A stretch of 64,000 bases of DNA from Escherichia coli (lineage in GTDB: Bacteria > Pseudomonadota > Gammaproteobacteria > Enterobacterales > Enterobacteriaceae), in assembly GCF_048403405.1 (NCBI RefSeq), contig NZ_CP183129.1. One strand, given 5' to 3'. This document shows positions 8,483 through 25,334 of the stretch, in pieces; within the stretch, counting starts at the first letter, position 1; each line of letters opens with the position of its first letter. The notes below the pieces were generated by a model, which had not been told where the DNA came from, did not search any database, and saw only the letters and a list, made by a program, of their open reading frames with translations. A program made the position numbers and the translations under genes.

Positions 8483-9922
8483 TTAAGACTGTAAATAAAC
8501 CACCTGGGTCTGCAGATATTCATGCAGGCCATGTTTACCATCTGCGCCGCCAATACCGGATTTACGCCATCCGGCGTGGAAGCCTTGCATAGCTTCGAAG
8601 TTTTCACGGTTGATGTAAGTTTCACCAAACTTCAGCCCTTTAATGGCTTTCATCGCGACGTTCAGATTTTGGGTATAGATTGATGAGGTCAGGCCGTAAT
8701 CACTGTCATTCGCCATTGCGATAGCATCTTCCAGCGTGTCAAATGCGACCACCGGCAGAACCGGGCCAAAGGTTTCCTCATGCATAATCGACATTTCCTG
8801 GCGAACATCCAGCAGCAATGTCGGCGGATAATAATATCCTTTCCCCTCTACCGCTTTGCCACCCAACGCCACTCTCGCCCCTTCTTCTACTGCGCGCGCC
8901 ACTTTTTGCTCGACCCTTTCCAGCGCCGCGGCGTTAATCAACGGCCCCATCGCAATGTCGTTGCGTTCTGCGGGGTTACCAAATTGAACCGCCTGCAACG
9001 CTTCACCCAGCCGATTGACGAACTGATCATAAATGCCTTTCTGTACATAAACACGTTCTGCACAGTTACACACTTGCCCACTATTAATGACGCGTGAATC
9101 AACGATGGCTTTGACTGCCAGTTCAAGATCGGCATCGTCCATTACGATAGCTGGTGCTTTACCCCCCAATTCCAGGCACACTTTGGTGATGTTTTTCGCC
9201 GCAGTCGCCATGATCTTTTCACCTGCAGAGACGCTGCCTGTCATACTGACCATTGCGACCTTTGGGTTACCCGCCAGTTCTTGCCCAACGGTTTCACCAC
9301 GCCCCAGAACAAGGTTAAACACGCCGCGCGGAAGGCCTATTTCATCGACGATTTTGGCGAATGCAATCGCATTGTTTGGCGTAAATTCACTGGGTTTAAT
9401 GACAATGGTATTACCAGTCAAAAGAGCGGGAGCCATTTTGCGGGCAATGAGGAAGAACGGGAAGTTCCACGGCAGAATGCCGGTAGTCACACCAAGCGCA
9501 CGTTTAAACAGAAGAATATTTTCTCCTGGACGATCGCTTTGAATAATCTCGCCCTCGTAACGCCGTGCCCACTCCGCCATGTAATCGATATAGTCCGCAG
9601 TAAAAGCCACTTCGACTTCAGCCAGCTGCTGGATCTTGCCCCCTTCTTCAACAATCAGCGCACTGATTTCACTGGCGCGTTCGCGGATCCCGACGGAGAT
9701 TTTGCGCAACCAACTGGCGCGTTCAATAGCAGGCAACGCTTCCCATTCTGGTTGTGCACGTTCTGCTGCATCGATTGCCTTACGGGCATCCTCGGCCTGA
9801 CCATCGGGAATGCGGGAAATGACAGCCTCTGTAGCAGGGTTTACCACATCAATCCATGCGTCTCCACGCCAGGTAACAAACTGTCCATCAATATACATAG
9901 GATGTTGAACGGGTACTGACAT
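8483..9922 (-). CDS. aldA: lactaldehyde dehydrogenase (NAD-dependent aldehyde dehydrogenase A)
   Basis: 479 aa aldehyde dehydrogenase; synteny. Confidence 0.95.
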   Translation of the reverse strand: MSVPVQHPMYIDGQFVTWRGDAWIDVVNPATEAVISRIPDGQAEDARKAIDAAERAQPEWEALPAIERASWLRKISVGIRERASEISALIVEEGGKIQQLAEVEVAFTADYIDYMAEWARRYEGEIIQSDRPGENILLFKRALGVTTGILPWNFPFFLIARKMAPALLTGNTIVIKPSEFTPNNAIAFAKIVDEIGLPRGVFNLVLGRGETVGQELAGNPKVAMVSMTGSVSAGEKIMATAAKNITKVCLELGGKAPAIVMDDADLELAVKAIVDSRVINSGQVCNCAERVYVQKGIYDQFVNRLGEALQAVQFGNPAERNDIAMGPLINAAALERVEQKVARAVEEGARVALGGKAVEGKGYYYPPTLLLDVRQEMSIMHEETFGPVLPVVAFDTLEDAIAMANDSDYGLTSSIYTQNLNVAMKAIKGLKFGETYINRENFEAMQGFHAGWRKSGIGGADGKHGLHEYLQTQVVYLQS

Positions 9923-10118: not shown

Positions 10119-10919
10119 TTAACGTAACGAGCGACTTTCCATCGCCTCGATGAGCACCGCATCGTGTTTCAGCGTTTGCCATGCATGGATGACTTCTGCC
10201 GGAAAATCAACGTGAACGATAAAATCTCGCCCGCGGGGACCGTAGCCATCGCTATCATCGCGTAAACGCGGCAGCTCGCCAGTGAGTAGTGAGAGATAAC
10301 GCTCAACCGGCCATAATCCTTGCAACGGATTAACAAAGATTACACTGTCTGCGTTGTTTCCTAGCTGAGGAACGAATCCGGGATAACTTAACCAGCGAGG
10401 TGCATCTGGATTGTCCCCGGTCATACGGCGGAACGTCGCCATCGTGCGCCGCTGCATGGTGGGGTCCTGAACAACGATAGCCGTATGAACTCGTTCTACG
10501 GCCTGATTCAATAGCGCGATGCTAAAGCGTGCGTTTTCACCGCAGTTTGTTGACTGGTCTTCAATCCAGATTTTTTCATGCGGAATATGCCAGAACTGAT
10601 GAGCGATATCGGCCAGGATGGTGGCTTCTGCTCTGCCAGTGGTGCGGATAGTGTTGTAGTGCGGATGCTGTGCGATAGCGCTATACAAAAAAGTTGTCGA
10701 GTGACCGATACCACCACTAATCAGTAGAGGAATTTGCTGATCGCGGGCAATCTTACATGCCGCATCGATAGTCGGCATAACCGCATTGCCTGCAAGGATC
10801 ACGCAATCGGCCTGATACGGCATCTCACCGGAGAAATCATCCTGCGCCAGCCACTGTCCGATAACATTTATGGCATCTATAGTTGCCGTCGAAAGCGTCG
10901 GAAACGGGGTAATGTTCAT
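10119..10919 (-). CDS. ydcF: DUF218-domain protein YdcF
   Basis: 266 aa matches YdcF. Confidence 0.9.
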
Positions 10920-11034
10920 GGTTCCTCCTTATCGTTCCCTTAAGAATACTGCGTGAGATAATAATGAGAAGCGGAGCACTCTGAAAGGAAGATGATGCTT
11001 TTTCTACCTCGCCATCGCGAACCAGACACTGGTT

Positions 11035-11412
11035 TTAGTCATACTGTATTTGCGGAGAAACTGTTGATAAAACATCAATAACATCATTTGACGTGGCAAT
11101 GACATAATGCTCGATCACATTATTTTTATAAATTTCACAACTTTGCATAGTAAACCATGCAAAGTAGGCGGAATTCACTACTCTATAGATCCCCGTTTGG
11201 TTAATACCGTGAATTCCTGACATTCCTAACAAATCACCTTCGTCAGTAACACGAAATGAATGTATCCAGTCAAATGATAACTTAACTTCTGACTTGATCG
11301 CCGGACATATGAGGGTAAGTTCAAGCCTGGCATTTTTATAGCTTAAATCTGATAGTTCGGCATTTTTAAAAGACAATGAAGTCGGAGTGATATTTATAAA
11401 ACATTCATCCAT
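11035..11412 (-). CDS. hypothetical small protein (islet ORF-A, 125 aa)
   Basis: ATG preceded by AGGGG SD; very AT-rich; no TM segment or recognised motif. Confidence 0.55.
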   Translation of the reverse strand: MDECFINITPTSLSFKNAELSDLSYKNARLELTLICPAIKSEVKLSFDWIHSFRVTDEGDLLGMSGIHGINQTGIYRVVNSAYFAWFTMQSCEIYKNNVIEHYVIATSNDVIDVLSTVSPQIQYD

Positions 11413-11531
11413 GTTAATACCCCTTCATATATGAGACTGCTCTCGATAGACGACACATTAACCTTCTGCAAAAACGGTGCGAGTCTGTTTACGTACCATG
11501 TATAATCGATGGACATTACTGTGATTTGAAA

Positions 11532-11981
11532 TTACCTTGTCCAGTCATCAACCATTTTTTTCAGGGGGAACATCTGCAATACATTCATTAATGCGAAATA
11601 TAATTCCCCCTGTGGCACCAATATTCTAATCTTCTCATCCCCTAAAATGAAAAATTGCAATTGACGTTTGAAACCTAATGTTTTATCTTCAGGTAATTCA
11701 GCTTGTATTTTTTTATTGATATCATCAAGGTAGATGTGATGACAATACTCATCAAACATACTCATTACTTCCAGACCGTTTACAGATGTCCATCTTTGTT
11801 CACTTTCCCAATAAACAAGAACCGGTTTGCGGCAGGTATATCTGCCTAAAAAGCGCTGAATGTGTTCTTCCTGATTCTCGTAAAATATTGCCTCTGCATT
11901 CGAGATTTGCCGACGCATTCGCCAGCGGATTTTTTCTTCATAAAAAGACAATTTGTCGCATTTGGTATTACTCAAATTCAT
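11532..11981 (-). CDS. hypothetical small protein (islet ORF-B, 149 aa from MNLSNTK)
   Basis: ATG at 11981 overlaps the stop of ORF-C by 11 nt (coupling geometry); the track start is a TTG 9 nt upstream. Confidence 0.5.
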   Translation of the reverse strand: MNLSNTKCDKLSFYEEKIRWRMRRQISNAEAIFYENQEEHIQRFLGRYTCRKPVLVYWESEQRWTSVNGLEVMSMFDEYCHHIYLDDINKKIQAELPEDKTLGFKRQLQFFILGDEKIRILVPQGELYFALMNVLQMFPLKKMVDDWTR

Positions 11982-12360
11982 TGTCAACAACTCGCATGGT
12001 TTTAAATATAAAATTTAAAAAACCGCCAAACAAATGAAGTGAAATTTCATACTTCTTTGCCTTATAAACAATTACCGCATCTTTAATATTACCTGCATTT
12101 TGGTTATCTATAAGTTCAGCAATATCCATAACCTGCGATAAATGTTCCACTCCCGTAAACTCGAACCTTTTTCGTTCCCTTCCGGCTGTAAATTCATCAA
12201 CATAAAGTTCTGCCGTCAATATAAAATTATACTCGGTGTGGTGACATTCCATTCTGGTTTCTACTAAAACACCATCATGCCAGATAATATTGTCTAAATT
12301 TTTCATACTATTAATCCAATCCATTACTTTCTGATAAAATTTCCTCTGGAAGTTTTTCAT
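11968..12360 (-). CDS. hypothetical small protein (islet ORF-C, up to 130 aa)
   Basis: open frame with three candidate ATG starts (M1, M13, M19), none with a strong SD; AT-rich. Confidence 0.45.
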   Translation of the reverse strand: MKNFQRKFYQKVMDWINSMKNLDNIIWHDGVLVETRMECHHTEYNFILTAELYVDEFTAGRERKRFEFTGVEHLSQVMDIAELIDNQNAGNIKDAVIVYKAKKYEISLHLFGGFLNFIFKTMRVVDNEFE

Positions 12361-12537
12361 AGAAAGAGATTAAAGCCTGACCGACGCAATCAAGCTCTAT
12401 TATTCGCTCATAATACGATCTCATTAAAATATCATGCTTACTCATTGCAATACGTCCTGTTTACCATGGGCAGAGTATGAATGTAACTTATGTAAAATAG
12501 TACCGCCCTTGCTATTTTTCAGAATTCATAAAGAAAA

Positions 12538-12566
12538 AACCCGGCGCTAAATGCTTACCGGGTTTT
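12538..12566 (-). terminator. rho-independent terminator downstream of hrpA
   Basis: stem AACCCGG/CCGGGTT with 13-nt loop, followed on the minus strand by a run of 6 T; lies 25-50 nt past the hrpA stop. Confidence 0.75.
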
Positions 12567-12590: not shown

Positions 12591-15500
12591 TTAACCGCTA
12601 ATCTGCTCCATCGCCTGCAAAATACGCTTATCTGAAATCGGATAAGGCGTACCAAGTTGTTGAGCGAAGTAACTAACGCGCAACTCTTCTATCATCCAAC
12701 GGATCTCTTTCACGTCTTCATCCTCACGACGTGCGGGCGGCAGTTTGTTGATCCATTGCTGCCACGCCTGCTGGACATTTTCGACTTTCAGCATCTGAGC
12801 ACGGTCGCGATGTGGGTCAACCGCCAGTTTTTCCAGCCGTTTTTCAATCGCCTGCAAATAACGCAGCGTGTCGCCCAACCGTTTGAAGCCGTTACTAGTG
12901 ACAAAACCGCGATATACCAACCCGCCCATCTGCGCTTTAATGTCAGAAAGCCCCAGCGCCATGGTCATATCCACCCGCCCTTTCAGACGTTTATTGATAT
13001 TGAACACCGCAGTAAGGATTTGCTCGACCTGCTTCGCAATATCCACCACCGTGTCGTTCAGTTCAGCGCGGACTTTTTCATGCAGCGCAGCAAAACCTTC
13101 TTCCGTCCAGACCGGGCCACCATTGGCGTCGATCAGTTGATCCACACCGCAGGAGATACAGTCGTCGATCAGCTCCAGCACTTTGCCATACGGGTTAAAG
13201 TACAGCCCCAGCTTGGCTTTGTTTGGCAACTTCTCATGCAAATATTTGATTGGCGAGGGAATATTCAGCAGCAGTAGACGGCGAAGACCGTTCCACATTG
13301 CCTGCTTTTGTTCCAGCGGATTATCAAACAGTTTGATCGCCACGCTGTCGCGTTCATCCACTAGCGCTGGCCACGCCTTCACTTTATAGTTGCCACGCTT
13401 CTGTTCGTAGCTTTCCGGCAGCTGACCAAAACTCCAGATATGTAAGCCGCTCTGCTCGATACCGTCATCCGCCACCGCAGACAGCGTTTCCTGCACTTTG
13501 CCTTTCAGCGCATCTTTCAGATCTTGTAGAGAGCGCCCTTCTTTTAGCTTCTTGTTTTTGTCATCCACCACACGGAAGGTGATTTTCAGGTGATCGGGCA
13601 CCTGATCCCAGTGCCAGTCTTCGCGGTCAACGGTGACGCCAGTCATCCGCCGTAGCTCTCGTTCAAGGCTGTCGAGCAACGGCAATTCCAGCGGTGTGAC
13701 GCGGCCTAAAAAAGCTTCGGCGTAGTTTGGCGCGGGCACAAAATTACGCCGTACCGGTTTCGGCAACGATTTAATCAGAGCAATCACCAGTTCGCGGCGC
13801 AGACCGGGGATCTGCCACTCAAATCCGCTCTCCTCCACCTGGTTAAGTAACGGCAGCGGGATATGTACCGTCACGCCGTCCGCATCCGCCCCTGGCTCAA
13901 ACTGATAACTCAAACGCAGCTTGAGATTGCCCTGATGCCAGAAGTTCGGGTAATCCAGCTTGCTGATCTTTTCCGCCCCTTCTTTGATCAACATGCTCTT
14001 TTCAAAGTTGAGCAAATCAGGCGTTTCGCGGCTGACTTTTTTCCACCAGCTGTCGAAGTGACGTGCGGAGATCACATCGTGGCTGATGCGCTGGTCGTAA
14101 AACTCAAACAGCGTTTCGTCATCCACCAGAATATCGCGGCGACGTGTTTTGTGTTCCAGTTCTTCCACTTCGGCCCGTAGTTTCAGGTTTTCACGGAAGA
14201 ATGCGTGACGCGTCTGCCAGTCACCTTCCACCAGCGCGTGGCGAATAAAGAGTTCACGACATAACGCCGGATCGATCTGGCTGTAGTTGACCTTGCGCGC
14301 GGCAACAATCGGCAAGCCATAAACAGTGACTTTTTCCGTTGCCATCACCGCGCCCTGCGCCCGTTCCCAGTGCGGTTCGCTGTAGATGCGTTTAATCAAA
14401 TGCTGAGCAACTGGCTCCACCCATTCTGGATCGATGCGTGCCGCAATGCGCCCCCACAGGCGGCTGGTTTCTACCAGTTCCGCCACCATTACCCATTTCG
14501 GCGGCTTTTTAAATAAGCCGGAACCGGGGAAAATGGAGAAACGCGCGTTACGTGCGCCGGTATATTCTTGTTTATCGGCATCTTTCATGCCGATATGGGA
14601 AAGCAAACCGGTCAGTAAGGCGATGTGAATTTCGCGATACTCCGCCGGTTCGCTGTTAACCGGAATGCCAAGTTCTTTTACCACCTGGCGCAACTGGGTG
14701 TAGATATCCTGCCATTCGCGCACGCGCAGATAGTTGAGATAATCGGTACGACACAGGCGACGGAAAGCGTTGGAAGAAAGCGCCTTTTGCTGCTCGCCAA
14801 GATAATTCCACAGATTTACAAACGCGAGGAAGTCGGATTCTTTGTCGTGGAAGCGACGATGTTTTTCGTCCGATGCCTGCTGTTTGTCCATCGGTCGTTC
14901 GCGCGGATCCTGGATGGAGAGCGCGGACGTGATAATCATCGCCTCACGCACGCAGCCATGTTTTTGCGCTTCCAGCACCATACGCGCCAGACGAGGATCG
15001 ACAGGCAATTGCGAAAGCTGGCGACCGAGCGGCGTCAGTTTATAGGCGCTGGCCTGTTCATCAGTGGTGATCGCGCCCAGCTCTTCGAGCAGACGCACGC
15101 CATCCTGGATATTACGTTTATCCGGTGCTTCGACAAATGGGAACGCGGCGATATCGCCCAACCCCAGCGCGGTCATCTGTAAAATAACCGAGGCCAGGTT
15201 GGTACGCAGAATCTCCGGATCGGTAAACTCCGGGCGCGAGAGGAAATCGTCTTCGGAATAGAGACGAATACAGATCCCTTCGGACACACGACCACAGCGG
15301 CCTTTACGCTGGTTGGCAGACGCCTGCGAAATGGGCTCAATCGGCAAACGCTGCACTTTGGTGCGATAGCTGTAGCGGCTGATACGCGCCGTACCTGGGT
15401 CGATAACGTATTTAATCCCCGGTACGGTCAGCGACGTTTCCGCGACGTTGGTCGCCAGCACAATGCGCCGTCCACTGTGCGACTGGAACACGCGGTTCTG

Positions 15501-16493
15501 TTCGCTGTTCGAAAGCCGCGCATAAAGCGGCAAGATTTCGGTATGGCGTAAGTTCAGCTTGTTCAGCGCATCGGCGGTATCGCGAATTTCCCGCTCACCG
15601 CTCATAAAGATCAGAATGTCGCCGGGACTTTCCTGGCTCAGTTCGTCTACGGCGTCAAAAATCGCCTGCAACTGATCGCGCTCGGTGTCATCGGCTTCTT
15701 CAACAATCGGGCGATAGCGCACTTCCACCGGATAGGTCCGACCGGAGACTTCGATAATCGGCGCATTATTAAAGTGGCGCGAAAAGCGTTCCGGGTCGAT
15801 AGTCGCGGAAGTGATAATGATTTTTAGGTCAGGACGCCGCGGTAGCAACTCTTTCAAATAGCCGAGCAGAAAATCGATATTCAGGCTGCGTTCGTGCGCT
15901 TCGTCAATAATGATAGTGTCGTACTGCATCAGCAGGCGGTCTTGCTGGATCTCCGCCAGCAGGATACCGTCGGTCATCAGCTTGACCATCGTGTTATCAC
16001 TAACGTGATCACTGAAACGCACTTTGTAACCGATGCAACCGCCCGGCTCCGTTTTCAGCTCTTCCGCAATACGGTTCGCCACCGTTCGTGCCGCCAGGCG
16101 ACGCGGCTGGGTATGGCCGATCAGCCCTTTAATCCCGCGCCCCAGTTCCATACAGATTTTCGGTAGCTGAGTCGTCTTACCGGAACCGGTTTCCCCGGCG
16201 ACGATCACCACCTGGTGATCACGAATCGCTTCGAGAATGTCCTTCTTTTTCTGACTAACTGGCAAATTGTCGGGATAAGTGATTTCCGGTCGTGCCGCTT
16301 CACGCAGCAGGACTTTCCCTGCCGCCTGGTCAATCTCTTTCGCCATCTCCTGGAAAATGGCCTGTTGTGCATCAGGATTTTTAACCTTCTTCACACCGTG
16401 CAGACGGCGTAAAAAACGCTGTCTGTCGCGCAGCATCAGCGAATCCAGCCGCTGCTGCAAGGCTGTAAAGGTCAATTTTTGTTGTTCTGTCAT
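12591..16493 (-). CDS. hrpA: ATP-dependent RNA helicase HrpA (DEAH box)
   Basis: 1300 aa; GETGSGKTTQ and DEAHER motifs. Confidence 0.95.
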   Translation of the reverse strand: MTEQQKLTFTALQQRLDSLMLRDRQRFLRRLHGVKKVKNPDAQQAIFQEMAKEIDQAAGKVLLREAARPEITYPDNLPVSQKKKDILEAIRDHQVVIVAGETGSGKTTQLPKICMELGRGIKGLIGHTQPRRLAARTVANRIAEELKTEPGGCIGYKVRFSDHVSDNTMVKLMTDGILLAEIQQDRLLMQYDTIIIDEAHERSLNIDFLLGYLKELLPRRPDLKIIITSATIDPERFSRHFNNAPIIEVSGRTYPVEVRYRPIVEEADDTERDQLQAIFDAVDELSQESPGDILIFMSGEREIRDTADALNKLNLRHTEILPLYARLSNSEQNRVFQSHSGRRIVLATNVAETSLTVPGIKYVIDPGTARISRYSYRTKVQRLPIEPISQASANQRKGRCGRVSEGICIRLYSEDDFLSRPEFTDPEILRTNLASVILQMTALGLGDIAAFPFVEAPDKRNIQDGVRLLEELGAITTDEQASAYKLTPLGRQLSQLPVDPRLARMVLEAQKHGCVREAMIITSALSIQDPRERPMDKQQASDEKHRRFHDKESDFLAFVNLWNYLGEQQKALSSNAFRRLCRTDYLNYLRVREWQDIYTQLRQVVKELGIPVNSEPAEYREIHIALLTGLLSHIGMKDADKQEYTGARNARFSIFPGSGLFKKPPKWVMVAELVETSRLWGRIAARIDPEWVEPVAQHLIKRIYSEPHWERAQGAVMATEKVTVYGLPIVAARKVNYSQIDPALCRELFIRHALVEGDWQTRHAFFRENLKLRAEVEELEHKTRRRDILVDDETLFEFYDQRISHDVISARHFDSWWKKVSRETPDLLNFEKSMLIKEGAEKISKLDYPNFWHQGNLKLRLSYQFEPGADADGVTVHIPLPLLNQVEESGFEWQIPGLRRELVIALIKSLPKPVRRNFVPAPNYAEAFLGRVTPLELPLLDSLERELRRMTGVTVDREDWHWDQVPDHLKITFRVVDDKNKKLKEGRSLQDLKDALKGKVQETLSAVADDGIEQSGLHIWSFGQLPESYEQKRGNYKVKAWPALVDERDSVAIKLFDNPLEQKQAMWNGLRRLLLLNIPSPIKYLHEKLPNKAKLGLYFNPYGKVLELIDDCISCGVDQLIDANGGPVWTEEGFAALHEKVRAELNDTVVDIAKQVEQILTAVFNINKRLKGRVDMTMALGLSDIKAQMGGLVYRGFVTSNGFKRLGDTLRYLQAIEKRLEKLAVDPHRDRAQMLKVENVQQAWQQWINKLPPARREDEDVKEIRWMIEELRVSYFAQQLGTPYPISDKRILQAMEQISG

Positions 16494-20431: not shown

Positions 20432-21328
20432 TCAGTAACAGCAGTAGCGAATAAAATAAAAAAATACCGGAGCGGTGAAAATTAATGAGTCAATCCTGTC
20501 AAGGAGTCCGCCATGTCCTGGTAATAGTTTTCCACTATCTTTAACACCAATATCTCGTTTGATGGCTGACATCACTACATCGCCGCAAAAACCACTAATA
20601 CCAATTAACAAACCCGTTAATAATGCCTGTAATGTATTTACCGGTGTCAGTAACGGTCCAATAATCAGTGACACAATCATGGTAGTGATTACGCCCCCCA
20701 CCAGACCTTCCAGCGTTTTTCCCGGGCTGACTTTGGGGACCACTTTTCTTCTGCCGCAGGATTTCCCCCATAAATACTGTGCAATATCGTTTGACTCGGT
20801 TAATGCCAAAAGAAATAACACCAGTAACGCCTCGCCCTGGATATTTATGGTTGGCAACATTAACAACCAGGCGGCATGACTCAAGGCGAAAACGATCATT
20901 ATCCAGCCCCAAAAAATGGCGCTCACAGTATGCAGAAAACCGGAGGGGTCCCCCACAAAAACTTGCCCGGTGGCTAATATCAGAAACCCAGCCAAAGGTA
21001 TAAATAACAGATACAGCTCAAAGCAATTAAAACCGATAAACAAATAGTTAAGAGGAATACCCCAATATAACCAACGCGGAAAATGTACAGATATAAGCGT
21101 ACAATATTCTTTCAATGCCAGAAAACTTATCAGCGCAAAAAACGTCAACGTCATCCAGCGTGGACCTGAAATCACCATTGAAAAACAAATGACGATGCCC
21201 CACCAGGTACGAATACGTAATGTAACTTCATCCCCTTTTCTCTCCGGTAACCGCCATATCAGAAAACGGTTTATCAGCGTTGCTAAAATTAACAACGCGA
21301 AAAGTGTTGCCAGAGATTTTTCCAGCAT
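20432..21328 (-). CDS. ynbB: CDP-diglyceride synthase-family membrane protein YnbB
   Basis: 298 aa polytopic protein; synteny. Confidence 0.85.
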   Translation of the reverse strand: MLEKSLATLFALLILATLINRFLIWRLPERKGDEVTLRIRTWWGIVICFSMVISGPRWMTLTFFALISFLALKEYCTLISVHFPRWLYWGIPLNYLFIGFNCFELYLLFIPLAGFLILATGQVFVGDPSGFLHTVSAIFWGWIMIVFALSHAAWLLMLPTINIQGEALLVLFLLALTESNDIAQYLWGKSCGRRKVVPKVSPGKTLEGLVGGVITTMIVSLIIGPLLTPVNTLQALLTGLLIGISGFCGDVVMSAIKRDIGVKDSGKLLPGHGGLLDRIDSLIFTAPVFFYFIRYCCY

Positions 21329-21933
21329 TATCTTTCAGCACTCATCAGGAGCACACTCCGACAACGATTAATCGCAGTCCAGATAAGCAGAATTGAAGCA
21401 ATGCCCCATAAAAGATTATTCCATTGCATCCACTGTGGATAAATGGCAACGGCCAGCCCCCACAACCCAAATATTAACGCACGATCGCTTTTGCCGAATG
21501 GACCGGCATAACTGCGAATACCGTTAATCGTCTGCGCGAGTAAACCGCAAAACTCAGTCAATATGGTGCAAAATAACATGAGTATTACGAGTGGTGCGTT
21601 TCTTTCCGGTAAAAATAAAAACGGTAAATAGAGCGCAATATCGGAAATAACATCGCCAGTTTCATTCAAAATCGCCCCCAGACGTGTTTGCTGATTGCAC
21701 TCACGCGCCAACATGCCATCCAGCGCATTGAGCGCCATACGGATAAAAAGTACGATGGGCAATAGCAAAAAGAGGATGGGTTGTGCGACCAACATCAACA
21801 GCAATCCGGTAAAAAGAGAAAGCGCCAGTGCAGTAAGAGTGATGTGATTCGCTGTAACATGGTGCTTATAAAGCCAAAACATCGTCGGTCTTAACAGCGT
21901 CTGAAAGAGCGGTTTTATCTGGTAGAGCGTCAT
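21328..21933 (-). CDS. ynbA: CDP-alcohol phosphatidyltransferase-family protein YnbA
   Basis: 201 aa from MTLYQIK; membrane protein; synteny. Confidence 0.85.
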   Translation of the reverse strand: MTLYQIKPLFQTLLRPTMFWLYKHHVTANHITLTALALSLFTGLLLMLVAQPILFLLLPIVLFIRMALNALDGMLARECNQQTRLGAILNETGDVISDIALYLPFLFLPERNAPLVILMLFCTILTEFCGLLAQTINGIRSYAGPFGKSDRALIFGLWGLAVAIYPQWMQWNNLLWGIASILLIWTAINRCRSVLLMSAER

Positions 21934-22103
21934 TATCAATCCTTGATAATTCTGTTTGCGCTATGGTGCATCAATTGCCCTGACAGAGATATCGCAACAC
22001 GCCGCTTCATTAAAAATTCAGAATATATCAAGGTATTGGGGACTCACCGTCAGGAATGCTTATCCCCAATAAATCAAGTGGTTAAAAATTATCACGCTGT
22101 TAT

Positions 22104-24410
22104 TCAATACAACTCATCAAGTTTTCTCATCGCTTGTTCCCGTATTGCGCGCGTCTTACCGTTAAGCGCCAGCTGCCGAACTAAATCCAGTTCAGGGTTA
22201 ACAAGCTCTAACGCCAGCAAAGGATCACGTTTCAGCCTCGCCTTTAATATATCAACTGGAAAACGGGGATTATTCATCGCCACAATCCACCACTCGGGAT
22301 CAATTTCTGCCGCCAGTACTGCAGGCGGTGTGTGGTGGTTGTTAAGTGCGCCGAACTTGAAAAATGTGAGATTGCTTTTCGCCAGTGTACTCCACCATAT
22401 ACGATCCGGTTGTTTTGCCAGTTTATCCAGTTGTGCTAATGCATCGGGGTCAAGTGCATAATAAACACGTAACGCTTCGTTAACCTGCGCACGAGAGCTG
22501 TTTTCCTGCCTCAGAAAAAACTTCGCCCAAATATCATTGCGTGGTATATTTTGCTGTAATTCCTTGAGGACAACAGCGGGTAAATTATCCCAACTAACTA
22601 ATGCACTCTCTAAAAAGTCCCAGCCTTCCGAACGTATCAGAGAGGTGGCATTTAATAGCATCTGGTCATCAACTTCACCGTGGCTAATCAGCTCAGACAA
22701 AATCATATCAGCGCTGGTTTCATATGCTGCAGAATCTGCTTTCGGATTATTTTTCCGATGCGATAAAGCACGTTGCCAAATTTTTTGTTTCATCGACGTG
22801 CTCAGATACTGATTTTTCGCCAAATTACTCCACCCCTCAGGATCGTTGAAACGTGTCAATAACCGTTGTAAAGCAGCGTCAGAGTGAATTATCTGCATAT
22901 CCCGACAGCAAAAGTAGGCAGGGGATTTTTTCTCCATCCTTTTAACAAAATTAAACTGTAAGTTATCTGGCAACGCTAAAAATAACGTACCTATTAGATC
23001 ATCATCATTCTCGAATTTTTGGTATAAATATACTGCTATTTTGTGACTCTCTTGTGGCGTCATCCGCAACAATTGACCATGGTGTTTCATCTCTGCCAGC
23101 TTTGACGCTAAGCTTGTGACAACATCGTTTGATGAATCGTTCGCCAACTGCATTGCCTGATTGTAGCTGAGTTGTCCTCCAGCACCGACCTGACGAATAG
23201 AGGAATCATCTCTGCGGATATAGCCATCAATAATGGATTCGGGCAATAACCACGCATCTTTATAAAGCTCCTGAATGATCATATCCCAATCTCTTTTCGC
23301 CAGAGTCATGACGATATCCAGAGGGAGATTTTCACGTAGCGCAAGATTCAACGGACCGACACCATCAGGTAGATGACTCATTCGCGTCATTATTTCGACA
23401 GAGAGCGGTTCACGGTCGAGCAACCCCAGAACAACAGGCTGGTAACCCAATTGCTGATCGGTCAACTCCAGAATCTCATTGTCAGGCATATATCTCGCCA
23501 TACTTTCAATCGTTTGTTCATCATTGCTATTAATAAGTTGTTTGCGTAGGTTAGCTGAAATTCCTTTAAGCCTTGGGAGAGTTCGCATTATGGCAAGATC
23601 AAATGTCGCAATGTCTCGCCCTTCAAATGCAGCAACTTTGCCTTCATCCAGCATTTGCAATTCCTGCACTAATTCAGGTGAAGGCTTAGGGCGAAACAGC
23701 GCTTCTTTTTTCATCTGATTACAGACATTCCCTGCTATGCGAATATTGCTTCGCTTAAAAATTTCTTTCAGAGCATCTTCATCATTTATTAGGCCCCAAT
23801 AATATGCATCAGGATTTATTATCGTCAGCGCTTTTTTGACATTTTCAGTGTCATTTTTGTCTCCCGCACGGACCATGAATTCACTATTTGTCGAAGACAC
23901 AACAACAGGTGCAATTATGTCATTGATAAATATCCCGCGCGCATTAATACTTCCCTTAATCGTAGACGGATTATCGTAATATGAGTCGATAAATACCAGT
24001 CCACTTGCATTTATCGAACCGGTAATTAACAGTGGTGAATCCGTAACTATATTCGTTGCCGTCACGTTACCGAGAATAACCCATGGATTAGAAAGAGAGA
24101 AAGTGGAAATATTACCTTTGACTGTCAAATTGCCAAGAACAATCAATTTTTGATTACTCTCTATATTACCTTCTACCACTAAATCGCCACGATGCACTTT
24201 CCAGTCCGATGCAGATAAACCGAAGGGGACAAGATTCACGCTACTGTTGATAGCTTGTTCAACTTGTTGTTTATCTTCAGCGGTAGCCGCAGAAAAAAAT
24301 GGTTCAATATCAACTGCATTTGCAACACATCGAAGTTCCGCCTGTACTGGAAGACTCAGCATAAACAGGGGAAGTAAACCTATCCAGCTGCAAATCCTGG
24401 GCTTAAACAT
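22104..24410 (-). CDS. ydbD: uncharacterised exported protein YdbD
   Basis: 768 aa from MFKPR with signal peptide; synteny. Confidence 0.85.
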   Translation of the reverse strand: MFKPRICSWIGLLPLFMLSLPVQAELRCVANAVDIEPFFSAATAEDKQQVEQAINSSVNLVPFGLSASDWKVHRGDLVVEGNIESNQKLIVLGNLTVKGNISTFSLSNPWVILGNVTATNIVTDSPLLITGSINASGLVFIDSYYDNPSTIKGSINARGIFINDIIAPVVVSSTNSEFMVRAGDKNDTENVKKALTIINPDAYYWGLINDEDALKEIFKRSNIRIAGNVCNQMKKEALFRPKPSPELVQELQMLDEGKVAAFEGRDIATFDLAIMRTLPRLKGISANLRKQLINSNDEQTIESMARYMPDNEILELTDQQLGYQPVVLGLLDREPLSVEIMTRMSHLPDGVGPLNLALRENLPLDIVMTLAKRDWDMIIQELYKDAWLLPESIIDGYIRRDDSSIRQVGAGGQLSYNQAMQLANDSSNDVVTSLASKLAEMKHHGQLLRMTPQESHKIAVYLYQKFENDDDLIGTLFLALPDNLQFNFVKRMEKKSPAYFCCRDMQIIHSDAALQRLLTRFNDPEGWSNLAKNQYLSTSMKQKIWQRALSHRKNNPKADSAAYETSADMILSELISHGEVDDQMLLNATSLIRSEGWDFLESALVSWDNLPAVVLKELQQNIPRNDIWAKFFLRQENSSRAQVNEALRVYYALDPDALAQLDKLAKQPDRIWWSTLAKSNLTFFKFGALNNHHTPPAVLAAEIDPEWWIVAMNNPRFPVDILKARLKRDPLLALELVNPELDLVRQLALNGKTRAIREQAMRKLDELY

Positions 24411-24473
24411 ATGCACTCCATGCCATTAAAAAAGAAACAAAAGGGAAATGCATCTTTCCCTTTTGTATATTCG

Positions 24474-25334
24474 TTATTCTCGCGATATACCATCCAACGT
24501 AGACAACACTTCCTCAGAAAGATGCAATTTTTCAGCAGCCATATTCTCCCGTAAATGCGCAACAGAAGACGTCCCTGGGATCAGCAAAATATTCGGTGAA
24601 CGTTGTAACAGCCACGCCAGCGCCACCTGCATGGGTGTTGCACCCAGGCTCGCAGCAACATCCGACAGCGTAGAGGATTGCAGCGGTGTAAAGCCCCCGA
24701 GCGGGAAGAACGGCACGTAAGCAATGCCATCGTGGGCCAAAGCATCAATCATTGCATCATCAGCACGGTGCGCGATGTTGTATTCGTTTTGCACACAGAC
24801 AATTTCGGCAATCTTGCGCGCCTCTGCAACCTGCGTCGGTGTGACGTTGCTCAGGCCAATATGTTTTACCAGGCCTTGTTGTTGCATCTCTGCCAGCACG
24901 GTCAGGCTGGCCTCAATCGATCCTTCCGCTGGGCCATGACCATCCCCCATCATAACGCGCAGGTTAACCACATCCAGTACGTCCAGGCCGAGATTACGTA
25001 GATTATCGTGCACCGCTTTTTGCAACTCTGCCGGAGAAAAGGCGGGCAACCAGGAAGCGTCCTCTCCACGCCGCGCACCAATTTTAGTGACAATTGTCAG
25101 GTCGTCAGAGTAAGGATAAAGCGCTTCGCGGATAATCTGATTGGTGACGTGCGGACCATAAAAGTCGCTGGTATCAATGTGATTGACGCCCAATGCCAGC
25201 GCCTCGCGCAGTACAGTTATAGCGACGTGGCGATCTCTTGGGGGGCCAAAAACCCCAGGACCTGCCAGTTGCATCGCGCCATAACCAAGACGGTTAACGG
25301 ATTTTGTACCGAGAGTAAATGTGTTGCTGCTCAT
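24474..25334 (-). CDS. ydbC: aldo-keto reductase YdbC
   Basis: 286 aa matches YdbC. Confidence 0.9.
   Translation of the reverse strand: MSSNTFTLGTKSVNRLGYGAMQLAGPGVFGPPRDRHVAITVLREALALGVNHIDTSDFYGPHVTNQIIREALYPYSDDLTIVTKIGARRGEDASWLPAFSPAELQKAVHDNLRNLGLDVLDVVNLRVMMGDGHGPAEGSIEASLTVLAEMQQQGLVKHIGLSNVTPTQVAEARKIAEIVCVQNEYNIAHRADDAMIDALAHDGIAYVPFFPLGGFTPLQSSTLSDVAASLGATPMQVALAWLLQRSPNILLIPGTSSVAHLRENMAAEKLHLSEEVLSTLDGISRE

What the first reader, a model, noticed from the sequence alone, without database searches (positions are those of the whole stretch)
11035..12360. Islet ORF-A and ORF-C look like distant paralogues
By eye the two proteins share a similar segment order and an alignable core (A: …ARLELTLICPA…KLSFDWIHSFRVTDEG…; C: …FILTAELYVDEF…RFEFTGVEHLSQVMD…). 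Tandem divergent paralogues of small cytoplasmic proteins are typical of immunity or anti-defence gene arrays. This is a visual impression, not a computed alignment.
Basis: inference. Interest (0 to 1): 0.4.

Follow-up and report, generated by a model that had tools for sequence, protein, structure and literature searches.

The report
Orphan immunity gene islet beside hrpA
A 1.5-kb low-GC islet between hrpA and ydcF, found in about one in nine E. coli genomes, carries leftover "immunity" genes against toxins injected by rival bacteria. The two flagged genes show no detectable sequence relationship, although they probably adopt the same small immunity-protein fold.

Summary
The window is E. coli chromosome. 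Positions 10990-12527 (GC 33-38%) are an islet that replaces 138 bp of K-12 sequence between ydcF and hrpA. It is present in about 585 of 5,426 complete genomes.

The ORFs are real and under purifying selection (dN/dS about 0.2). The claimed A/C "alignable core" is not significant:
- BLASTP finds nothing.
- Shuffle z-scores are 0.6 (local) and 1.4 (global).
- hhalign gives Prob 0.2-0.3%, or 5% with secondary-structure lines added.

The true C gene is 112 aa. The 130-aa ORF is an upstream extension through a deletion scar.

The "immunity array" reading is supported:
- A-family genes sit 6-9 nt after CdiA toxin C-termini in Duffyella and Cedecea, and after a homologous toxin cassette in a Neisseria maf island.
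- A C-family gene follows a VgrG-Rhs toxin.
- A B-like domain is fused to a CdiI_3 immunity domain.
- Alternative cargo at the same site includes an SMI1/KNR4 protein.
- No toxin gene, or remnant of the A-cognate toxin, is present in the window.

Independent models of A (pLDDT 85) and C (pLDDT 48, weak) both hit the same two PDB chains best: the PIM7 immunity protein and 5V77. A and C therefore probably share a fold, but they are not tandem paralogues. This is a new member of a known kind.

The parts
10990..12527 (.). Low-GC islet (1538 bp, GC 33-38%) between ydcF and hrpA. It is absent from K-12, where 138 bp of unrelated sequence lies instead.
   Evidence: Composition. blastn against the K-12 locus L056 defines the boundaries. 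Full-length islet in 585-586 of 5,426 complete E. coli genomes.
11035..11412 (-). ORF-A, 125 aa, acidic (pI 4.7). An orphan CdiI-type immunity gene.
11427..11510 (-). Remnant of the C-terminus of a further gene ('E', 138 aa when intact), lying in the B-A spacer.
   Evidence: BLASTP to L008 2424-2837, residues 111-138, E 5e-7. In L008 the intact E lies between the C-like and A-like genes.
11532..11981 (-). ORF-B, 149 aa. Its start overlaps the end of C by 14 nt. Probable immunity-type protein.
   Evidence: PGAP call. Homologues only in Escherichia. 36% identical (E 5e-35) to the C-terminal half of a 237-aa protein whose N-terminal half is a CdiI_3 domain. dN/dS 0.52.
11968..12306 (-). ORF-C proper, 112 aa, acidic (pI 5.2). 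Member of an unannotated WHDG...ELxDNxxAGNI family; probable Rhs/T6SS-type immunity protein.
   Evidence: PGAP call. Family of 91 representatives with no Pfam match. One member lies 43 nt after a 2033-aa VgrG-Rhs toxin; another lies in a DUF596/CdiI_3/Ank array. dN/dS 0.19 against E. albertii.
12307..12360 (-). Spurious 5' extension of the 130-aa 'ORF-C' into the deletion scar.
   Evidence: Homologue alignments start at MKN. Window 12315-12336 replaces 313 bp of the O55:H7 islet.
12341..12445 (-). D', the 5' fragment (about 35 codons) of gene D, which is 141 aa when intact in O55:H7.
   Evidence: PGAP pseudogene, 'missing C-terminus'. tblastn of O55 D residues 1-35 gives 83% identity. Intact D is in L013. 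A D::A fusion is seen in L006.
12533..12566 (-). hrpA intrinsic terminator hairpin (CCCGG...CCGGG followed by a T-run). The islet begins directly after it.
   Evidence: Read from the sequence and conserved in K-12. The consensus scan missed it; the hairpin's loop, as read from the sequence, is longer than the scan's 3-8-base limit.

Best explanation
The hrpA-ydcF islet is a toxin-less array of orphan immunity genes against polymorphic toxins delivered by rival bacteria. The gene order is D' (broken), C, B, E' (remnant), A.

A is a CdiI-type immunity protein for a small basic C-terminal toxin domain. That domain is carried by CdiA in Duffyella and Cedecea, and by a maf-island cassette in Neisseria. 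C belongs to a separate family that occupies the immunity position after an Rhs toxin. B is a third immunity-type domain.

Each protein most likely works as a small acidic cytoplasmic protein that binds its cognate toxin domain and blocks its active site. This would protect a cell that does not itself make the toxin (inferred). A and C are not tandem paralogues. They are unrelated at the sequence level, were brought together by accretion and deletion at a recombination hotspot, and probably share a PIM7/5V77-like alpha+beta fold.

Shown here: gene reality, absence of sequence similarity, synteny of homologues with toxins, and locus polymorphism. Inferred: toxin binding, protection, and the shared fold.
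For: No A/C similarity:
-.

A as immunity:
- It sits directly after CdiA with PT-VENN in four Duffyella loci.
- The same toxin C-terminus survives as a frameshifted remnant 9 nt upstream of the Cedecea homologue (E 4e-18), inside a cdiA-CT/cdiI orphan array.
- Another homologue lies in a CDI array next to CdiI_3.
- A 40%-identical toxin homologue in N. gonorrhoeae is followed 3 nt later (ORF coordinates) by a protein that matches the A profile (Prob 55%, E 1.2e-4).

C as immunity:
- Member P0084 lies 43 nt after a VgrG-Rhs protein.
- Member P0076 lies in an array of DUF596, CdiI_3, Ank, C-like, E and A-like genes.

B: its domain is fused to CdiI_3.

Locus variation:
- Empty in K-12 and most strains.
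- D-C-B-A in O55:H7.
- An SMI1/KNR4 protein (PGAP product name) in strain GN04592.
- DUF7021/DUF2262-C-A in E. albertii.

Other points:
- Purifying selection on A and C.
- A and C each carry a net charge of -7, and the associated toxin domains are basic.
- No remnant of the A-cognate toxin in the window.
Against: - Neither A, B nor C matches any Pfam, NCBIfam, PADLOC or PDB sequence family.
- The toxin link for C rests on one Rhs locus and one array. Several distant C-family members sit alone among housekeeping genes.
- D and C are syntenic after hrpA in another enterobacterium. This could mean a D-C functional pair of another kind.
- The C structural model is low-confidence (pLDDT 48), and the Foldseek match is not significant (E 0.56).
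- No close DNA match to the A-cognate toxin domain was found in 5,426 E. coli genomes. The threat it would protect against was therefore not identified in E. coli.
- No binding or protection was tested.
Confidence: 0.75

Rival explanations
1. A and C are true, very remote homologues: two branches of one PIM7-like immunity superfamily. On this view the first reader's 'distant paralogues' is right in the broad sense, though not as a local tandem duplication.
For: - Foldseek ranks 5V77 first for C.
- Both proteins are acidic and of similar size.
Against: - hhalign Prob is 0.2-5%, and BLASTP and shuffle tests are null.
- The C model has pLDDT 48.
- The two PDB chains might be generic attractors for small curved-sheet models. 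NTF2-like folds also appear in both hit lists.
- The conserved motifs differ (HSFRVTDEGDLL in A, WHDG/DNxxAGNI in C) and do not align.
- The two families have separate genomic distributions.
Confidence: 0.3
2. The genes form a toxin-antitoxin or anti-phage defence operon. One example would be D as toxin with C as antitoxin, or a three-gene defence system.
For: - The genes are tightly packed and co-oriented, and the C/B reading frames overlap.
- The D-C pair is syntenic in another genus.
- The islet has low GC and is variably present.
Against: - No PADLOC, Pfam or NCBIfam match.
- D is broken here while C, B and A remain under purifying selection.
- A and C homologues occur without the other genes, next to CdiA or Rhs toxins.
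- E. albertii lacks both B and D.
Confidence: 0.07
3. The islet is decaying junk DNA, the remains of an old insertion whose ORFs no longer have a function.
For: - D is truncated and E is reduced to a remnant.
- Deletion variants fuse D to A.
- About 89% of E. coli genomes lack the islet.
- No promoter-like site scored above background.
Against: - dN/dS is 0.16-0.28 for A and 0.19 for C across the E. coli / E. albertii split.
- Islet nucleotide divergence (75-78%) is similar to that of the flanking core genes (78-79%). This argues for long retention of intact reading frames.
Confidence: 0.1

Closest known systems
CdiI immunity proteins and orphan cdiA-CT/cdiI modules of contact-dependent growth inhibition (Poole et al. 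2011, PMC3150448)
   Same: A-family genes occupy the cdiI position directly after CdiA C-terminal toxin domains (PT-VENN) and occur in orphan arrays downstream of cdiA. They are small, acidic and cytoplasmic.
   Different: In the window there is no cdiBAI locus and no remnant of the A-cognate cdiA-CT next to A. A matches none of the Pfam CdiI families. The cognate toxin domain is also unannotated.
PIM7, immunity protein of the PT7 DNase toxin of Bacillus cereus (PDB 8OWU; bioRxiv 10.1101/2021.10.19.465003)
   Different: Sequence identity is only 9-13%, and neither profile finds PIM7 by sequence. PT7 is an LXG (type VII secretion) DNase. The toxins linked to A and C are CdiA/Maf and Rhs C-termini with no detected similarity to solved structures.
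Rhs/T6SS immunity genes and orphan immunity clusters (the acquired interbacterial defence clusters of Bacteroidales are cited from my own knowledge; PMC12247911 was seen only by title and abstract)
   Same: A C-family gene directly follows a VgrG-Rhs toxin. The islet holds several immunity-type genes without a toxin, and its content varies between strains.
   Different: There is no integrase, recombinase or mobile-element signature. The islet is tiny (1.5 kb) and sits at a fixed chromosomal site after the hrpA terminator, apparently inherited since before the E. coli / E. albertii split.
MafI immunity proteins of Neisseria maf genomic islands (own knowledge of the Maf system)
   Same: An N. 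gonorrhoeae maf-island cassette encodes a homologue of the Duffyella CdiA-CT. It is followed 3 nt later by a protein that matches the A profile.
   Different: The profile match is marginal (Prob 55%). The delivery system and the N-terminal toxin architecture also differ.

Membership tests
A and C as paralogues (one protein family) | Significant pairwise or profile-profile sequence similarity | tested here: not met
   BLASTP gives nothing at E<=100. Shuffle z-scores are 0.6 and 1.4. hhalign Prob is 0.26% and 0.16%, or 5% with secondary-structure lines. Cross-searches with each family HMM find no member of the other family.
A and C as paralogues (one protein family) | Same predicted fold | tested here: inconclusive
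CdiI (CDI immunity protein, functional class) | Encoded immediately downstream of a CdiA C-terminal toxin domain | tested here: met
   Met for A-family homologues in Duffyella (6-nt gap) and Cedecea (remnant CT 9 nt upstream). In the window itself A is an orphan with no remnant of the cognate CT upstream.
CdiI (CDI immunity protein, functional class) | Binds and neutralises the cognate CdiA-CT | not testable with these tools
   This needs co-expression or binding assays. Only charge complementarity was seen: A has pI 4.7 and the CT has pI 10.1.
Pfam CdiI families (CdiI_2, CdiI_3, CdiI_N, CDI_Immunity_Comp) and Imm families | Match to the family HMM above the gathering score | tested here: not met
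   There are no Pfam hits for A, B, C, D' or for 64 C-family members. B is only homologous to a domain that is fused to CdiI_3 in L008.
PIM7-like immunity fold | Structural similarity to PDB 8OWU chain E at fold level | tested here: met
Rhs/T6SS immunity (RhsI-type) for C | Encoded directly downstream of an Rhs toxin C-terminus | tested here: inconclusive
   One C-family member (P0084, E 4e-13 to the C profile) lies 43 nt after a 2033-aa VgrG-Rhs protein. In the other contexts examined, C-family members lie downstream of hrpA, alone among housekeeping genes, or next to unannotated genes.
Orphan immunity island (acquired interbacterial defence type) | Several immunity genes without cognate toxins, with content that varies between strains | tested here: met
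   The window has no remnant of the A-cognate toxin. Locus variants were found: empty, D-C-B-A, SMI1/KNR4, and DUF2262-C-A.
Orphan immunity island (acquired interbacterial defence type) | Associated mobile element or recombinase | tested here: not met
   Only small ORFs lie between ydcF and hrpA, and none has a Pfam match. Junction repeats were not examined.
Known anti-phage defence or TA systems | Match to PADLOC, Pfam or NCBIfam defence or TA models | tested here: not met
   There are no hits.

The most novel reading that the evidence does not exclude
A, C and their relatives define an unrecognised PIM7-like immunity-fold superfamily. Its members neutralise unrelated toxin domains delivered by type V (CdiA), type VI (Rhs), type VII (LXG/PT7) and Maf systems. 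In addition, the 3' end of hrpA is an ancient, conserved chromosomal depot for toxin-less immunity genes in Enterobacterales. Genes there have been kept under purifying selection since before the E. coli / E. albertii split as protection against toxins made by other genera.
Probability: 0.3. Interest if true: 0.5.

Novelty: new member of a known kind. Interest (0 to 1): 0.3.

Why it matters
Orphan immunity genes shape who can kill whom in gut communities. This islet gives names and testable partners to three or four E. coli proteins currently annotated only as "hypothetical", including proteins of the O55:H7 lineage. It also links an unannotated toxin domain across CdiA, Maf and Gram-positive loci, and it points to hrpA's 3' end as a recurrent depot for immunity genes. 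None of this changes the known concept, so the value is annotation and a few direct experiments.

Tried and rejected
- Family libraries (Pfam, NCBIfam, PADLOC, PHROGs) for all five ORFs gave nothing usable. The only result was a weak PHROG hit for A, E 0.0096.
- PDB sequence searches with the A and C profiles, the CdiA-CT, the Rhs-CT and two Neisseria proteins gave no real hits.
- A degenerate DNA pattern for ELxDNxxAGNI across genome contigs gave 36 loci. Only 3 were true family members, and none was next to a toxin.
- tblastn of C against plasmids found no match.
- Cluster names for ten C-family representatives returned none.
- afdb50 was not available for a fold search.
- The promoter/terminator scan was uninformative.
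- Literature searches for the RefSeq protein accessions, DUF2262 and 5V77 returned nothing.
- I tested whether the N. gonorrhoeae maf-island proteins are the 5V77 chain. They are not.
- I tested for a link from the C profile to the Neisseria A-like protein. None was found, Prob 1%.
- P0154, a 505-aa hit to the C profile, is a repeat protein and a false positive.

Full report
**Where we are.** The window is E. coli chromosome. On the minus strand lie aldA (8483-9922), ydcF (10119-10919) and hrpA (12591-16493), with a low-GC stretch (33-38% against about 50%) between ydcF and hrpA. Comparison with K-12 puts the islet at 10990-12527, 1538 bp. K-12 has 138 bp of unrelated sequence at that position. 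The islet begins directly after the hrpA terminator hairpin. A full-length islet is present in 585-586 of 5,426 complete E. coli genomes, and RefSeq annotates only "hypothetical protein" there.

**Checking the observation.** ORF-A (11035-11412, 125 aa) and the 130-aa ORF called C (11968-12360) both exist.
- The real C gene is 112 aa (11968-12306). PGAP calls it so, and every homologue begins at MKN...IIWHDG.
- The extra 18 codons run into a deletion scar. Relative to the O55:H7 version of the islet, the window lacks 313 bp inside an upstream gene, D (141 aa when intact). This leaves a 44-codon ORF, of which about 35 codons are the D fragment that PGAP marks as a pseudogene.
- Between C and A lies B (149 aa). 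Its start overlaps the end of C by 14 nt.
- The B-A spacer holds the remnant of yet another gene, E.

**Are A and C alignable?** They are not, by any sequence test.
- BLASTP returns nothing at E<=100.
- Against 2000 shuffles, the local score has z = 0.6 and the global score z = 1.4.
- I built family alignments. The A family has 34 sequences reaching Erwinia, Pantoea, Duffyella, Cedecea and Citrobacter at 38-48% identity. The C family had 9 Escherichia sequences, then 64 after an exhaustive profile search that found 91 representatives.
- hhalign gives Prob 0.26% and 0.16%.
- Adding secondary-structure lines taken from the AF2 models raises this only to Prob 5%, P = 0.025.
- Neither family HMM finds a member of the other family among all ORFs of the loci fetched by then.

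The predicted strand/helix order is colinear along it.

The paper describing PIM7 reports that it occludes the toxin's active site (bioRxiv 10.1101/2021.10.19.465003).

**What A is.** Four lines of evidence point to a cognate toxin/immunity pair.
- In four Duffyella gerundensis loci the A homologue starts 6 nt after a CdiA protein (Fil_haemagg_2 plus PT-VENN). The toxin C-termini are 99% identical between loci.
- In Cedecea neteri the A homologue sits in a classic orphan cdiA-CT/cdiI array (CdiA_C, EndoU, CdiA_C_tRNase, Ntox33). A frameshifted remnant of the same toxin C-terminus ends 9 nt upstream of it.
- A further homologue lies in a CDI array beside a CdiI_3 gene.
- The toxin domain (...GRPTLEI...KFRY, pI 10.1) has no Pfam or PDB match. 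It does have a 40%-identical homologue in an N. gonorrhoeae maf island, followed 3 nt later by a 133-aa protein that matches the A profile (Prob 55%, E 1.2e-4).

A is therefore the immunity partner of a toxin family carried on CdiA and Maf scaffolds. In the window it is an orphan, with no remnant of that toxin present. I also found no close DNA match to that toxin domain in the E. coli genome collection.

**What C and B are.**
- The C family comprises proteins of about 110 aa with motifs WHDG, a conserved R, ELxDNxxAGNI and L-x-G. It has no Pfam match in any of 64 members.
- One member lies 43 nt after a 2033-aa VgrG-Rhs toxin, which is the canonical immunity position.
- Another member lies in an array with the gene order DUF596, CdiI_3, ankyrin, C-like, E, A-like.
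- Other members follow hrpA in two other enterobacteria, lie next to unannotated genes, or sit alone among housekeeping genes in distant phyla.
- B has homologues only in Escherichia. It is, however, 36% identical (E 5e-35) to the C-terminal half of a protein whose N-terminal half is a CdiI_3 immunity domain.
- A and C are both acidic (net charge -7) and have no hydrophobic segment.

**Locus history.** The site is polymorphic.
- It is empty in K-12 and most strains.
- It carries D-C-B-A in O55:H7.
- It carries a D::A deletion fusion in some strains.
- In one strain it carries an SMI1/KNR4 protein on the other strand, next to an A remnant.
- It carries DUF7021/DUF2262-C-A in E. albertii.

Islet divergence between E. 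coli and E. albertii (75-78% nucleotide identity) is about that of the flanking hrpA and ydcF (78-79%). dN/dS is 0.16-0.28 for A and 0.19 for C. These are real genes, retained for a long time and lost in most E. coli lineages. Because the A and C families occur independently elsewhere, the array arose by accretion and deletion, not by tandem duplication.

**Mechanism.** The most likely model (confidence about 0.75) is that each product is a cytoplasmic immunity protein. It would bind one toxin domain delivered by a competitor's CDI, Maf or Rhs/T6SS system and block its active site, so a strain that lacks the toxin is protected. The synteny, selection and fold evidence are shown here. Binding and protection are inferred.

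**Rivals.**
- Remote true homology of A and C (0.3). This is compatible with the main model.
- A decaying relic without function (0.1), contradicted by the purifying selection.
- A TA or defence operon (0.07). There is no model match, and D is broken while the other genes persist.

**Novelty.** Orphan immunity genes are a known phenomenon (for example PMC3150448). I found no paper on these proteins or on this islet. The A and C families and A's cognate toxin domain are absent from Pfam. This is a new member of a known kind, of modest interest.

Noticed in passing
L009 5550-6345; L052 5001-5435; window 11968-12445: A D-like gene (46% identity) and a C-like gene are syntenic directly downstream of hrpA in another enterobacterium. 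In a third lineage a C-like gene again follows hrpA. The 3' end of hrpA looks like a conserved depot for these genes, or D-C may be a functional pair.
   Followed up: partly
L004 7368-7991; L061 2324-2776; plasmid-collection hits H64 and H65: An unannotated small basic toxin domain (...GRPTLEI...KFRY) is shared by Duffyella CdiA-CT, an N. gonorrhoeae maf-island cassette (40% identity) and Enterococcus raffinosus (33%). It has no Pfam or PDB match.
   Followed up: partly
L062 1-5958: A VgrG-Rhs fusion has a C-terminal domain after the DPMGL motif that contains an RHLHWE motif and ends in a long hydrophobic tail. This domain has no Pfam or PDB match. A DUF6714 gene and a PAAR gene follow the C-like immunity gene.
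   Followed up: partly
L008 624-1337: A 237-aa protein fuses a CdiI_3 immunity domain (residues 16-85) to a B-like domain (residues 101-236). It is either a two-domain immunity protein or a fusion of two orphan genes.
   Followed up: partly
L002-L004 8434-8766; L059 114-317: A SymE_toxin gene lies antisense directly after the A-type cdiI gene in the Duffyella CDI loci, and another lies near a second CDI array.
   Followed up: no
L007 5004-5861: The E. albertii version of the islet carries a 285-aa DUF7021 + DUF2262 protein in place of D. Its function is unknown, and no literature on it was found.
   Followed up: partly
L012 1210-2000: E. coli strain GN04592 has a different cargo at the same site. 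An SMI1/KNR4 family protein and a 99-aa ORF lie on the opposite strand, next to a 66-bp remnant of A.
   Followed up: partly
window 11035-11412: ORF-A has a weak but nearly full-length match to the phage protein family phrog_15075 of unknown function (E 0.0096).
   Followed up: no
plasmid collection records NZ_CP119142.1 and NZ_CP119140.1: Two 2.17-Mb N. gonorrhoeae replicons are filed as plasmids in the plasmid collection. They are evidently chromosomes.
   Followed up: no
window 20432-25334: A second lower-GC stretch (39-46%) holds several long ORFs: 298, 203 and 770 aa on the minus strand, followed by a 286-aa ORF. I read them as ordinary K-12 genes (ynbB, ynbA, ydbD, ydbC) from memory of the K-12 map. 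No search was run to confirm this.
   Followed up: partly
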